Part shown: positions 1,808 through 62,600 of the stretch, piece after piece
Layout of the letters: the number at the start of each line of letters is the position of its first letter
Numbering within the stretch: position 1 is the stretch's first letter
Source: Octopus vulgaris
Taxonomy: Eukaryota
Reading direction: 5' to 3'
Length of the DNA: 64,000 nt
Assembly: GCA_951406725.2 (NCBI GenBank)
Contig: OX597825.1
Span: 17,732,001 to 17,796,000, forward strand
Translations under genes and position numbers: made by a program
The notes under the pieces: model-generated
What the model was told of the DNA's origin: nothing
Seen by the model: only the letters and a program-made list of their open reading frames with translations
The model's database searches: none

Positions 1808-1865
1808 ATTATGTTGACGAAGGAAATGAATCTTTGATTCTAATCCTGAAACGTGCGTCCATAAT
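1808..1865 (+). ncRNA. Type I hammerhead ribozyme motif (C3U variant)
   Basis: ATTATG-TTGACGA-AGGA.aat.GAATC.ttt.GATTC.taa.TCCT-GAAA-CGTGCG-TC-CATAAT. Stem I is a perfect 6 bp; predicted GUC cleavage after 1859. Confidence 0.75.
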
Positions 1866-2366
1866 TGACCGTGGACCGTTTGATTTCGTTATTTTTCTTC
1901 TGTTTTTGCCATATAATGAGTTACAAATACTGTTGTCTGTGGAGACATATTTTTGCAGTAAAAGGAAATAGCAGTCCTCTGGGTGCTATTTCTAAAACTT
2001 TCGGTATGTGGTCAAGCAACTTGTTGCAAAGACCCTTATTGTTATATATTTATATATATATATACCATGCGCGCACAAACGTGTATTTACACACGCCTAA
2101 GTACATGCGTTCACTAACTCACATACACACACAAACGCACGCACACACAGATACAAAATATTTGTTTCACATTTTCACTCCCTTTTATCCTGTCACAATC
2201 TGAAAAAGTAGAAAACAAACAAACATTTAGTATTAAGGACATCTCATTGATGAGGTCTCAAATGGTAACTAAAACACGCTGACGAACCGAGCTGATTGAT
2301 TAGATCAACCCGCCGATTAATCAAGTCATCTATTTGTTAATTAGCAGAATAGTCAACAAGTTGAAT

Positions 2367-2790
2367 AATAATAATGTTAACAACAACAACAACAATAATA
2401 ATAATAATAATAATAATAATAATAATAATAATAATAATAATAATAATAATAATAATAGCCCTGATCCAGTACCAGACAGTTGCTCTCATGGCTACTGATC
2501 TTAACTGATTGGAAGTGTTATCGTGTACATTGTTTTGTCTTGGTATAAAAGATGGGCTACAGCAAATATTCTGTTCAATACCACAGATTTGCTTGTCAGT
2601 TTGACCTTAACCAGTTGACCATGTCCCTTAGTGACTGACGATATGTGCATCTCTGATCACGTGCAGAAATAGTGGGGGAGCATCATAGCCATGTGTTGAG
2701 GGGGATTCTTTGGGGTTCGGATAATTCACATTTGGAAACGTGGGTGGTTCGTTCAACATTCTTAAACGATCCTTATTCAGGGAGCTTTTG
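2367..2790 (-). mobile_element. 3' end of a non-LTR retroelement with (ATT)n tail
   Basis: Non-coding block 2457-2790 abutting an (AAT)n tract at 2367-2456, the layout of a LINE 3' UTR plus trinucleotide tail on the minus strand. Confidence 0.5.
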
Positions 2791-2792
2791 AG

Positions 2793-3240
2793 CTTACGTA
2801 CCACATGGTTCCGGGTTCAGTCCCTCTGCGTGGCACCTTGGGCAAGTGTCTTCTACTATAGCCTTGGGCCGACCAAAGCCTTGTGAGTGGATTTGGTCGA
2901 CAGAAACCGAAAGAAGCCCATCGTATATATATACATATATATATATATGAATATATACATATATATATATATATATATACATATATATATATATATGTGT
3001 GTGTGTGTGTGCGTGTGTGTGTGTGTGTGTATGTTTTTGTGTGTGTGTTTGCCCTTCCCTCAACATCGCTTGTACTGTGTTTACGTTCCCGTAACTTAGG
3101 TATTCGGCAAAAGAGACCTATAGAATAAGTACTAGGATTACAAAGAAGAAGCCCAGTGATCGATTTGCTCTACTAAAAAAAGGCGGTGCTCCAGCATGGC
3201 CACAGTCAAAATGACTGAGACAAGTGAAATAGTAAAAGAG
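2793..3240 (+). mobile_element. SINE family B, 5' truncated, expanded internal microsatellite
   Basis: Matches 991-1390; internal (TA)n(TG)n at ~2924-3050. Confidence 0.9.
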
Positions 3241-3296
3241 TATCCCGAAATGTAACACACGACCTCACATCAAAATACAAAGATGAGAATGTACAC

Positions 3297-3430
3297 TGTT
3301 ATCTGTATAAACGTGTATTTCCTATCCATAGGTTTATTAGTATCACATTAGTATAATTGTATATGTTATCTGTATAAACGTGTATTTTCTATCTATATAT
3401 TTATTGGTATCACATTAGTATAATTGTATA
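3297..3430 (+). repeat. Tandem duplication, 2 x 67 bp
   Basis: TGTTATCTGTATAAACGTGTATT...GTATCACATTAGTATAATTGTATA at 3297 and 3364. Confidence 0.9.
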
Positions 3431-59660: not shown

Positions 59661-59948
59661 CATACAGAATCATAGTTTCTTGATCTTCGCCTAATATATT
59701 CGAAGCCACACATGTGTATTCTCCAAAATCATCTTTGTTCAAGTCAATAATGCGAATGCTAAGTGTATAGGAATTTCCAGATTCATCGTAAGGTTCAATC
59801 CGATATTTCCAAGATTTCTTTAGTGTAATTCCATTTCTTTCCCATGACATACCTCCTAAAGGCACGGCAGTTATCATGCAATCCAAAATAGTTTCTTTCC
59901 CTCGGATTTGTCCCATTCGCTTAATTGGTAAGCGTACGTCAGGTAGAA
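59661..59948 (-). CDS. Ig I-set domain exon of a lachesin/IgLON-like cell adhesion protein (membrane-proximal Ig)
   Basis: ttgtctttgcAG acceptor, GTAAGT donor, 288 bp, phase 1-1. LDC...W...YTLSIRIIDLNKDDFGEYTCVASNILG carries the Ig Cys, Trp and DxGxYxC signature and resembles lachesin Ig3. Confidence 0.92.
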
Positions 59949-60697
59949 CTGCAAAGACAAACAAAGAAATTCCTATTAAACGTCAGCTTTGATCGAGCTT
60001 ACAGCCCCACAGAAAAGGGAGTGTGATCAGGCCTTTGAAAGGAAGCGTACCAAGTAAGAGAACCTTCTGCAGGGTTACAGTTTGGTTGCAGAGGATTCCC
60101 TGCCAGTCGGTTCTGAAGATGTTTGGAACTAATAAAATGAGACGAAAAGAGCAAACATGGAAGATACAGCAGGAAGAGGCTATTGCTGATTATGGAGCAA
60201 GTGAGAGGAGTTAAGATGGAAGCCAGGAGAAGAAGATAAGCAGTGATTTGGACTCCTCTGATGACTCTCGAACGGGAAGGTGAAACACCCAATAATCTTT
60301 GGAGACTGACTGATGACGTCAATTCTTCATGGATAAAATTCCATTCACTTCGGTGAGAGGAAACGAAGGATCTCCTTCCTGCTGTTATAAATAATATATA
60401 TTCGTATTCAGACTGCATTAAATAAGTTTAAATATGTAGTTTTCTAATAATATTCCGTATTTTGACATTACATATGTCCACTTTTCTATTTGAATACAGG
60501 TATCAAATACAAAATACATTCAATCGTCATTCGTTACCTTTGGGATATTGTGAGGCAATTCAGAAAAGAAGATGACATCATCTGTTCCGTTTGTGATATA
60601 GAACATCCGACTGAATACAATCATAAATGTGAATATGTGTGTGGGAGTTTGTGTGTGTATGAGTGTATGCATGTATATATATATATATATATATATA

Positions 60698-60903
60698 TTT
60701 CAAAATGTGATCGTGTGTACCGTTGGCGATTTTTTTTCCTCTGTCTTCCCTTCTCTGGACCTTTCCTTCTCCTACGAAGAGCTCCGACGAAGAGCTCCGC
60801 TCGAAACGTTAGACCCTCCTTCTTTCCTTTTTTCCTGAGCGTCCATTTGTTCCACGTCCTCGCGTTGTTGTGTTTTTTTTGTGTTTTCTTGTTTGCATTA
60901 ACT
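60698..60903 (+). mobile_element. ~200 bp cassette with a minimal hammerhead variant between microsatellites (intronic, antisense to gene)
   Basis: CCGACGA-A-GAGC.TCC.GCTC-GAAA-CG-TT-AGA at 60784-60813, preceded by a 13 bp local duplication; (TA)n on both sides. Confidence 0.55.
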
Positions 60904-60990
60904 ATATATATATATGTGTGTATGTGAGTGTGTGTGTGTGTGTGTGTGTGTGTGTGTGTGTGTGTGTGTCTGTGTGTTTGTGTGTATAGT

Positions 60991-61171
60991 GTCCTAAAGG
61001 AATGCAGACACTAGCTTGCAGCCCCTCTAACCCACATCTGGAGAAACTACAGTGAGCTATCGCCCAATCTCACCCAACTCTCGTGTCATCAAAGTCGTTG
61101 AAAGGGTGGTGAGATCAAGGACAGTTGGCTTCCTGGAGAGACAACATTTTCTACGTTGAAACCAGCATGGC
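60991..61171 (+). pseudogene. LINE reverse-transcriptase fragment (CR1/Jockey-like)
   Basis: VLKECRH*LAAPLTHIW and SYRPISPNSRVIKVVERVVRSRTVGFLERQHFLR*NQHG match the LKEC..LA.PL and YRPISL..K..E..QHGF motifs. Confidence 0.85.
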
Positions 61172-61181
61172 TAATATATAA

Positions 61182-62600
61182 TCTTTTACTTGTTTCTGTT
61201 ATTAGACGGCGACCTCACTGGAGCACCTTCTTCAATCGTTTAGTCACACAGATCGTCTCAACTACATACCATTTTATTTCTAAACCTTGTACTTCTACCG
61301 GACTCTTTTTGAGGAACTACCAAGGCGCTGATTTAAGCGGACTGCTAGTATGGTGGTGGTGGTGGTGGTGGGGGCATGCACAAACATAGACACTGGAAAC
61401 CTTAGATTTATATTTACAATTATACATATACACAAAAGCACACGAACCCACACAAAGGCACACACCCTCACACATATTTATATAAATATTTACATATATA
61501 TACAGAAAAATCTGTATGTTACTCTGTGAATGTCTGTATTATTGGATAATAATTTGCTCGCAAAGGAAACGTCGTCACCTCAAGCAAATTTCATTAACGG
61601 TGCGCAAGAAGTGAAATAAAAGCTGATAGATAAACAAAATTATAACGGAACGCATTCGTCGTAATATTGTTCCTGTATAAACATCGCCATCGTAAGACGT
61701 AGATGTTTTTGTTCACACACCGGATTCTTAAACGATTGTTATTATTTGTATCATGCTGGATTAGGTTTAAATGTATTTGTATCATACTGGACTAGGTTTA
61801 AATATGTCGACGCTGTGTAATAGGCATAAAATTATTATAATTTCCAGACTCAACCAGGAATATAACTATTTGTCAACATACTTTCCATGTGATATGTCTT
61901 ATCATTCATTTTTTTCCATGCATCGGTCCTTTCGCTGCGATCATACTGGGGCACCTACTTGAAGGTGGTTTTAGTCGAAGGAATTGATCTCTTGTAAACC
62001 TGGTACATATTGTATTGCTTTCTTATGACGAATCGCTAACTTATGCGGACGTAAACAAACCTACACTCTGTGGCAAGCGATGGTGAGGTGAAAGCAACAA
62101 TACAGAGGCTCTCACACATAGCTTTATATATATATATATATATATATATATGTGTGTGTGTGTGTGTGTGTGTGTGTGTATGTAGAAAATTCACAAACAA
62201 AAAAGACGGAGACAGGTGCAGGTGGTGTAGACAACAAACAGTTGTATTAGTATAACGCTCGGGAAGTGAAAAAAATTTTAACGTTTCGAGCCTATATATA
62301 TATATATATGTATATATATATATATATATATATATATATATATATATTATATATATATATATATATATATATATATATATTATGAAGGTGATGGAGAATA
62401 AGGATAATAGCAAAACGAAAAAGGAGGACAAAAAGAAGTAGAGGAAGAAGAGGATCCAAGACTGCAGCTCATACAAAGTGACGAACTGTGGAATACCCTG
62501 TCTGATAAACGGCAACCAAACCTGCTCACCGCGACATATGCAGGTCGGGCTTCTTACAGTTTCTTTCTAACAAATCCACTCACAAGGTGACACGCAGTGA
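61182..62600 (-). mobile_element. Two old SINE family B fragments (61182-61392; 61910-62600, the latter with nested insertions)
   Basis: Reverse matches to the family B tail and to CAAATCCACTCACAAGG. Confidence 0.6.
62184..62292 (-). mobile_element. Truncated copy of the 19451-19636 hammerhead cassette
   Basis: Minus strand AGGCTCGAAACGTTAAAA...CCCGAGCGTTATACTAATACAACTGTTTGTT; the 5' half of the ribozyme is replaced by (TA)n. Confidence 0.8.

What the first reader, a model, noticed from the sequence alone, without database searches (positions are those of the whole stretch)
1808..62292. Dispersed population of hammerhead ribozyme cassettes (Penelope pLTR/retrozyme-like) across the window
Seen: about 13 loci show the type I hammerhead order stem I - (C/U)UGANGA - stem II - GAAA - very short stem III - UH - stem I. 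Three are well folded (1808+, 4282-, 23771+). Others are variant or decayed (8171-, 12840+, 19510+, 28290-, 33088-, 36701+, 40817+, 52447+, 60784+, 62280-). Stem III is repeatedly a palindrome (CATATG, CGGCCG, CGCGCG, ACGT), although the flanks are mostly unrelated, implying many independent families. Established: Penelope-like retroelements and retrozymes carry minimal type I hammerheads with palindromic stem III that cleave as dimers. Inference: this genome hosts a diverse, high-copy set of non-autonomous ribozyme-bearing retroelements, invisible to ORF annotation. I cannot tell whether these families are already catalogued.
Basis: partly seen in the sequence, partly recalled or inferred. 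Interest (0 to 1): 0.88.

Follow-up and report, generated by a model that had tools for sequence, protein, structure and literature searches.

The report
Penelope retrotransposon tails with hammerhead ribozymes
Most of the hammerhead-like RNA motifs scattered through this animal DNA are real and mark the short tail ends of Penelope-type jumping genes, a known system; two details are unusual: one abundant protein-coding family has a normally fixed core letter changed, and one locus is a broken copy of a rearranged hammerhead-like motif in a different kind of jumping gene (cutting is predicted, not tested).

Summary
Mostly real, mostly known. Of 13 loci, 8 are copies of seven repeat families carrying a minimal type I hammerhead (4 still fold), 1 is a probable decayed copy and 3 are unverified. 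The last (28290-) is neither type I nor Penelope. Motifs far exceed shuffles: 22-39 hits against 0.25-2.9 in 600 kb of genome samples, about 1e5 genome-wide. Rfam finds none.

They are not mainly non-autonomous elements. 4283- and 19510+/62280- are 5'-truncated tails of Hydra- and Neptune-clade Penelope-like elements with intact 780-900-aa ORFs elsewhere; only 1808+ is a retrozyme-like 557-bp tandem unit. PLE hammerheads, including one octopus family, are in print.

Two variants were not found in my searches. The Neptune family has a fixed A6U core (103 of 106 copies). The 28290- family lies in the 3' UTR of an RT-REL (HERO-like) element, with core blocks in site-GAAA-CUGAUGA order; the window copy lacks its cleavage site. 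The scan noted both before in this genome, and a similar population in another genome. Cleavage is untested; copy ends show no footprint of it.

The parts
1646..2056 (+). Family B copy, part of a non-coding 557-bp tandem unit (retrozyme-like); type I hammerhead at 1808-1865 with U3 core
   Evidence: 1374 first-look candidates; three head-to-tail units in L210
4079..4407 (-). Family C copy, 3' tail (pLTR) of a Hydra-clade PLE ending at a (TA)n run; type I hammerhead at 4283-4368
   Evidence: (2666 candidates)
8170..8202 (-). Hammerhead-like motif, unverified (single-copy, stems I and III imperfect)
12576..12964 (+). Family F copy, decayed type I hammerhead at 12829-12924; family forms back-to-back inverted pairs
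19450..19676 (+). Family A copy, 3' tail of a Neptune-clade PLE between TA runs; minimal hammerhead at 19510-19545 with A6U core
   Evidence: (1988 candidates)
23664..24021 (+). Family D copy (old family, 70-82% identity); type I hammerhead at 23770-23926 with a long stem II insert
   Evidence: (589 candidates)
28275..28518 (-). Family G copy, 3' UTR of an RT-REL (HERO-like) non-LTR element; rearranged hammerhead-like core at 28344-28413 with the cleavage-site block deleted in this copy
   Evidence: (1552 candidates)
33042..33184 (-). Family H copy, decayed minimal hammerhead at 33090-33134; intact in other copies
36616..36855 (+). Family I copy, old repeat with a probable decayed hammerhead at 36698-36794
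40817..40859 (+). Hammerhead-like motif, unverified (single-copy, no acceptable stem II)
52442..52523 (+). Hammerhead-like motif with a duplicated core heptamer, unverified
60677..60923 (+). Family L copy, minimal hammerhead at 60782-60814 with U4C core; stem I broken here by a 13-nt duplication
62218..62294 (-). Family A copy truncated inside stem II (3' half of the motif only)

Best explanation
Eight of the 13 loci are short 3' ends of repeat families that carry a minimal type I hammerhead fold, two of these families continue upstream into Penelope-like RT and GIY-YIG genes, and the copies likely arise by target-primed reverse transcription that starts at a fixed 3' end and usually stops early. 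SHOWN: each family has a fixed 3' end about 50-200 nt past the predicted cut and ragged 5' ends. Back-to-back inverted partial copies occur. Families A and C end at (TA)n. Intact, near-identical ORF copies are flanked by the same hammerhead on both sides. INFERRED: the element is transcribed from the upstream pLTR through the ORF into the downstream pLTR; the GIY-YIG domain nicks TA-rich DNA and RT copies the RNA from the pLTR 3' end. The 2-8-nt palindromic stem III lets two hammerheads of a tandem or inverted pair cleave as a dimer, slowly (from PMC4209133). Genomic copies run across the predicted cut without piling up at it, so the RNA that gets copied is either uncut or re-ligated into a circle. 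Family B (557-bp non-coding tandem unit) is likely a retrozyme moved in trans by PLE proteins. The A6U hammerhead of the Neptune family is most likely a slow but still selected variant (about 55%) rather than a dead one.
For: Excess over shuffles. Fixed 3' and ragged 5' ends in four families of 30 loci each and in copies not picked as search targets (L ends at +118/119 in 24 of 34). (TA)4 within 40 nt of the 3' end: A 17 of 25, C 3 of 5, background 7.6%. Family C upstream GIY-YIG remnants (PF01541 E about 0.002, below cut-off); an RT piece finds 14 rows with 899-aa and 3 with 778-aa open frames among 150 scored; four 899-aa copies differ by 7-18 of 2697 nt; hammerheads on both sides of these ORFs. 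Family A upstream 826-aa ORF with RVT_1 E 1e-7. Covariation across 10 hammerheads of the Hydra lineage: 9 of 20 pairs change on both sides, 92% of cells paired against 39-50% when slid. Inverted pairs in B, D, F, H, L. A6U: 19 of 19 motifs in 17 of 20 long-ORF stretches, 6 of 6 in unselected samples, 103 of 106 overall. Among four A subfamilies only N7 and N17 differ in the motif, against 43 of 120 flank columns.
Against: No cleavage, transcript or circle was observed. 5' ends do not cluster at the cut (0 of 25 A, 0 of 34 L and 0 of 21 H copies within 9 nt), which fits a non-cutting motif equally well. No ORF was found beside B, D, H, I or L copies, and only one weak link for F, so their PLE origin rests on architecture. 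Family H shows no TA preference (0 of 21). The structure was drawn from the same sequences, which favours it over the slid controls. The contrast is partly circular: my pattern fixed stem II to U16.1, leaving 15 free motif columns, and subfamilies were defined on flank letters. Pfam gave no hit on the full Hydra-type ORFs and the PDB sequence search nothing relevant.
Confidence: 0.85

Rival explanations
1. The loci are a population of non-autonomous retrozymes that spread as small circular RNAs.
For: Family B is a 557-bp non-coding head-to-tail unit with one hammerhead per unit; a 359-bp seven-unit array turned up in an unselected stretch (L121). No ORF was found beside D, H, I or L.
Against: Families A and C continue into PLE ORFs. 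Most window copies are single, 5'-truncated and not tandem.
Confidence: 0.3
2. The hammerheads, above all the A6U one, are catalytically dead passengers, kept as part of the pLTR promoter or RT-binding signal; the elements spread from uncut RNA.
For: A6C strongly slows cleavage in Mg2+ (PMC3088659, PMC7151607 passages). The A6U family is among the most abundant (8 hits in 600 kb, about 37,000, CI 16,000-74,000). Copies cross the cut site intact. PMC8557442 notes that Naiads proliferate without canonical hammerheads.
Against: Compensatory changes across Hydra-type families. In the A6U lineage the subfamily changes fall on the two free positions and N17 stays H in 105 of 106 copies.
Confidence: 0.3
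3. The motifs are chance matches in AT-rich repetitive DNA.
For: The loosest descriptor gives 4.8 hits per shuffled window; 8171 and 40817 are single-copy.
Against: Strict hits are about 90-100 times the shuffle mean; 9 loci belong to families that keep a motif.
Confidence: 0.03
4. For locus 28290 only: the family holds a plain type-SGC hammerhead (stem II completed by the strand after CUGAUGA) rather than a split-core one.
For: Block order is site, GAAA, CUGAUGA, with a short linker between stems I and II as in PMC10085705; my SGC descriptor finds it. The upstream stem II arm lies in a slippery G-run and pairs fully in only 5 of 32 parsed copies.
Against: The SGC stem II has 3 G-U pairs of 5 and competes with a 9-10-bp helix between the upstream and downstream strands, which a second subfamily completes to 10 bp. 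The unrelated family N offers a perfect upstream 5-bp stem II (read by eye).
Confidence: 0.3

Closest known systems
Minimal hammerheads (min-HHR) in pLTRs of metazoan Penelope-like elements (Cervera and de la Pena 2014, PMC4209133; read: abstract, results, discussion, start of methods, passages of one supplement file)
   Same: Type I order, short stem I, extra nucleotide between 9 and 10.1, palindromic 15.2-16.2, U3-A8 variant (family B), many variable families per genome, mostly single truncated copies.
   Different: Far more copies here (about 1e5 by extrapolation, against 9,000 in Xenopus there); A6U core not seen in the passages or in the part of the supplement alignment shown (2 of 3 'CUGU' hits seen; one file unreadable).
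Hydra-clade PLEs, including Hydra-1_Obim (Craig et al. 2021, PMC8557442; read: passages, section 11, supplement rows)
   Same: RW and DKT motifs, C-terminal GIY-YIG without CCHH, CxxC and CxH around the E/N residues, (TA)n targets, hammerhead in the 3' end.
   Different: The 778-899-aa families here lack the CxCX5C linker cysteines, are visibly a different family from Hydra-1_Obim (compared by eye) and have young tandem copies with pLTRs.
Neptune-clade PLEs (motifs from PMC8557442 passages and supplement alignment rows)
   Same: GxxF, DKG, YIDD, CX-CxxC linker, CCHH GIY-YIG; close to the Neptune1_Ap row by eye.
   Different: Hammerhead core CUGUNGA (A6U) fixed across subfamilies.
Animal non-LTR retrozymes (PMC7229834 passages; bioRxiv 10.64898/2026.07.22.740005, part 1 of 5)
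   Same: Family B and the L121 array: non-coding tandem units with one type I hammerhead each.
   Different: Family B unit is 557 bp with a minimal U3-core hammerhead; circles not shown here.
Type-SGC non-circularly permuted hammerheads, HRIMA-1 (Eckert et al. 2023, PMC10085705; read: section 13 and passages)
   Same: Family G (28290-) has the order site, GAAA, CUGAUGA, a 5-bp stem I and a short stem I-II linker.
   Different: Reported there from metatranscriptomes, not from genomes of known organisms; here in a retrotransposon 3' UTR, with stem II probably completed from upstream (core split between A9 and G10.1).

Membership tests
min-HHR of metazoan PLEs | Type I order with core YUGANGA, GAAA, UH and stems I and II | tested here: met
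   intact at 1808, 4283, 23770 and, with A6U, 19510
min-HHR of metazoan PLEs | Very short palindromic stem III | tested here: met
   23 of 28 against 2 of 18 in shuffles
min-HHR of metazoan PLEs | Located in the pLTR of an RT plus GIY-YIG element | tested here: met
   met for A and C; not shown for B, D, F, H, I, L
min-HHR of metazoan PLEs | Invariant A6 | tested here: not met
   family A has U6 in 103 of 106 copies; met in B, C, D, F, H, L
min-HHR of metazoan PLEs | Self-cleavage as a dimer | not testable with these tools
   needs transcription assays
Hydra-clade PLE (family C) | RW motif, DKT, C-terminal GIY-YIG without CCHH, CxxC and CxH motifs | tested here: met
   atlas neighbours carry HTH_animal and GIY-YIG
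Hydra-clade PLE (family C) | CxCX5C linker motif | tested here: not met
   present in 9 of 10 aligned database homologs (the tenth ends before it), absent from all 4 genome ORFs aligned
Hydra-clade PLE (family C) | Placement in the clade by RT phylogeny | not tested
   no tree built; reference sequences not available as tool sequences
Neptune-clade PLE (family A) | GxxF, DKG, RT, CX-CxxC linker, CCHH GIY-YIG | tested here: met
   L296 826-aa ORF; clade name by motif, no tree
EN+ PLE insertion structure | Partial tandems, inverted 5'-truncated copies, (TA)n targets | tested here: met
   no TA preference in family H
Non-LTR retrozyme (family B) | Non-coding tandem units, each with a type I hammerhead | tested here: met
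   three 557-bp units in L210
Non-LTR retrozyme (family B) | Expressed as circular RNA | not tested
   no run search made for family B
Type-SGC hammerhead (family G) | Block order S-G-C with stems I and III | tested here: met
   stem I fully paired in 38 of 46 parsed copies, UH in 41 of 46; deleted in the window copy
Type-SGC hammerhead (family G) | Stem II arm directly after CUGANGA (uninterrupted block C) | tested here: inconclusive
   weak 5-bp pairing competes with a 9-10-bp closing helix; upstream arm fully paired in 5 of 32
Type-SGC hammerhead (family G) | Covariation in all stems | tested here: inconclusive
   no consistent compensatory change between G subfamilies; different paired sequences in family N, L056 against L239
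HERO clade non-LTR element (family G) | RT followed by zinc knuckle and restriction-like endonuclease in one ORF | tested here: met
   L385 746-aa frame, RVT_1 E 8e-22; REL motif read by eye; the name HERO comes from scan notes and recall, no tree

The most novel reading that the evidence does not exclude
Beside ordinary PLE hammerheads, this genome runs two ribozyme designs not found in my searches. An RT-REL (HERO-like) retrotransposon carries in its 3' UTR an active hammerhead whose strands are wired site-GAAA-CUGAUGA with the core split between A9 and G10.1, and locus 28290 is a broken copy of it. A coding Neptune family reached tens of thousands of copies with an A6U core, which makes it a natural test of whether PLEs need their ribozyme to cut.
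Probability: 0.5. Interest if true: 0.8.

Novelty: new variant of a known kind. Interest (0 to 1): 0.5.

Why it matters
The role of hammerheads in Penelope-like elements is still open (PMC8557442 calls it unclear). This genome has young, intact Hydra-type elements with canonical cores and an abundant Neptune family with A6U, so cutting can be compared between a canonical and a variant lineage. About 1e5 motifs are missed by Rfam. The rearranged motif, if active, would put a non-circularly permuted hammerhead in an animal genome and in a LINE-type element.

Tried and rejected
Rfam: 0 gathering hits in the window and in 15 sampled stretches that hold descriptor hits. In E-value mode the 150 rows shown of 325 were microsatellite-driven miRNA and snoRNA matches with no hammerhead; 175 rows were not shown. 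The repeat finder was swamped by microsatellites. Pfam on three full Hydra-type ORFs gave 0 families; the PDB sequence search gave only weak unrelated hits. An AlphaFold model of the 778-aa ORF was made (pLDDT 80) but no fold search could be run, so there is no structural comparison. Expression: no RNA holder listed; contigs of four runs laid on L196 showed no intron joint and cannot show ends or strand, so no verdict. A cleavage footprint at 5' ends was looked for and not found. I first read 28290 as type I, then as plain SGC; type I was rejected because neither CUGANGA there has a matching stem I 3' of a site. A pile of 17,407 first-look candidates for the REL piece is not a copy number; identity falls to 60% by rank 150. 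Lunse et al. 2017 (PLE hammerhead variants) is not held, so A6U may be described there. Literature searches behind 'not found in print'. bioRxiv supplements were closed and one PMC4209133 supplement file could not be searched.
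Full report
Setting. The window is G000:C12:17732001-17796000 of a 2.8-Gb genome. It is 34% GC, rich in microsatellites and has no long coding ORF. That the host is octopus-like is an inference from recalled repeat features and scan notes; I did not identify it further.

Is the observation more than chance? 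A strict type I descriptor finds 2 motifs in the window against 0.017 per shuffle, a relaxed one 4 against 0.8, and the loosest 12 against 4.8 (60 block-wise dinucleotide shuffles). In 60 stretches of 10 kb taken at round coordinates (599,900 bases) the strict descriptor finds 22 motifs against 0.25, and the most relaxed 39 against 2.9, in 25 of 60 stretches. Seven hits come from one array. Extrapolated, this is about 1.0-1.7e5 motifs, or 0.6-1.2e5 loci, a rough figure. The window is therefore typical of its genome. Rfam reports none of them. For comparison, papers give 9,000 min-HHRs in Xenopus (PMC4209133), up to 120,000 retrozymes in axolotl (PMC7229834 passage) and 235 Rfam hammerheads in giant squid (PMC6962438 passage).

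The 13 loci. Four fold as type I hammerheads (1808+, 4283-, 19510+, 23770+). Four are worn or partial copies of families that keep the fold (12829+, 33090-, 60782+, 62276-). One is a probable old copy (36698+), three are unverified (8170-, 40817+, 52442+) and one is something else (28344-). Stem III interiors longer than 2 nt are exact palindromes in 23 of 28 sampled hits against 2 of 18 shuffled ones.

What carries them. Genome searches show families with 589-2666 first-look candidates each (only the best 40 were scored). All four families examined on 30 loci have a fixed 3' end and ragged 5' ends. Family C (4283-) extends upstream into RT-thumb and GIY-YIG remnants. An RT piece from one of its loci finds open frames of 899 aa (14 of 150 rows) and 778 aa (3 rows). 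These are flanked on both sides by related hammerheads, in tandem or inverted arrangement, and four 899-aa copies differ by only 7-18 of 2697 nt. Their motifs match the Hydra clade of PMC8557442 (section 11), except that the linker cysteines are missing. That paper's supplement already lists an octopus Hydra family with its hammerhead. Across 10 hammerheads of this lineage, 9 of 20 pairs change on both sides (the structure was drawn from these sequences).

Family A (19510+, 62280-) extends into a Neptune-type ORF. An 826-aa frame has RVT_1 at E 1e-7, the linker zinc finger and a CCHH GIY-YIG. Family B (1808+) is a non-coding 557-bp tandem unit whose core alternates between U3-G8 and U3-A8, a variant described in PMC4209133. 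Families B, D, F, H and L form back-to-back inverted pairs typical of PLE insertions, but no ORF was found beside B, D, H, I or L, and one weak link beside F.

How it likely works. Shown: fixed 3' ends about 50-200 nt past the predicted cut; TA runs at the 3' end in A (17 of 25) and C (3 of 5) against 7.6% background, but not in H (0 of 21); and no 5' ends within 9 nt of the cut in 25 A, 34 L and 21 H copies. Inferred: target-primed reverse transcription from the pLTR 3' end with frequent early stop, and slow dimer cleavage through the palindromic stem III. The copied RNA is either uncut or a re-ligated circle; the DNA cannot tell which. Expression was not established.

Variant 1, A6U. Family A has U at position 6 in 13 of 15 off-centre copies, 6 of 6 in the unselected samples, 19 of 19 motifs beside long ORFs and 103 of 106 overall (most of these were fetched by similarity). 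Two copies, from one duplicated locus, have A6 and are otherwise alike, which fixes the numbering. Among four subfamilies only N7 and N17 differ inside the motif, against 43 of 120 flank columns; only 15 motif columns were free in my pattern, so this is suggestive. A6C is known to slow cleavage in Mg2+ and favour Mn2+ (PMC3088659 and PMC7151607 passages). I found no A6U report but could not read Lunse 2017. Scan notes reached the same point.

Variant 2, locus 28290. Scan notes on rewired hammerheads prompted a second look. The family (1552 candidates) lies directly after an ORF ending in a zinc knuckle and restriction-like nuclease (RVT_1 E 8e-22 in a 746-aa frame), behind a TATA-like word. 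Its blocks run site, GAAA, CUGAUGA. Stem I is fully paired in 38 of 46 parsed copies and the site is UH in 41 of 46 (2 of 48 did not parse). Stem III extends through a 7-8-bp helix, and a 9-10-bp helix joins the strand after A9 to an upstream strand. Stem II could come from upstream (split core; fully paired in 5 of 32 copies, in a slippery G-run) or from downstream (plain SGC; 3 G-U pairs of 5). No consistent compensatory change was seen between its subfamilies. An unrelated family outside the window (L056, L234, L239) has the same order with different paired sequences. The descriptor found 0 hits in 400 kb of samples and in 5 shuffles of it. The window copy has lost the site block. PMC10085705 found SGC hammerheads only in metatranscriptome-type data.

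Verdict. The population is real and is a further, dense example of PLE pLTR hammerheads with some retrozyme-like units. The label 'non-autonomous type I' fits only part of it. The A6U Neptune core and the rearranged motif in an RT-REL element are variants I did not find in print, both untested for cleavage. Interest 0.5.

Noticed in passing
window 16209-17016 +: Old, frameshifted remnant of a Hydra-type PLE reverse transcriptase (27-36% identity to the intact ORFs); no hammerhead found in the next 2 kb.
   Followed up: partly
L121:1917-4926 (G000:C1:20001917-20004926): Young two-armed array of seven 359-bp units, each with an identical type I hammerhead; a typical retrozyme insertion.
   Followed up: partly
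L191/L192 (G000:C1:119514500-119527999): Three head-to-tail 3.6-kb Hydra-type PLE copies with 867-899-aa open frames and identical hammerheads.
   Followed up: partly
L196:2287-4620 and L193:1647-4343: These Hydra-type ORFs lack the CxCX5C linker that PMC8557442 associates with (TA)n targeting, yet related family C copies end at TA runs (3 of 5); a possible test of that link.
   Followed up: partly
L056:1022-, L234:1216+, L239:2117+: Second family with site-GAAA-CUGANGA order, unrelated in sequence to family G, with compensatory differences in stems I and III; scan notes tie such motifs to Naiads, not checked here.
   Followed up: partly
window 60782-60814 and family L copies: U4C core in 9 of 16 copies; family L shares stem II and a downstream word with family A, with a swapped pair in stem I; about 70,000 hits by extrapolation; parent ORF not found.
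   Followed up: partly
window 28282-28300 -: Family G ends with a second GAAA-containing module after the rearranged core, conserved across copies; role unexplained.
   Followed up: no
window 40076-40177 and 40577-40678: 102-bp direct repeat at 95% identity, 501 nt apart, just upstream of the unverified 40817 motif.
   Followed up: no
window 12727 -: A second degenerate hammerhead-like string on the strand opposite the family F copy; probably chance.
   Followed up: no
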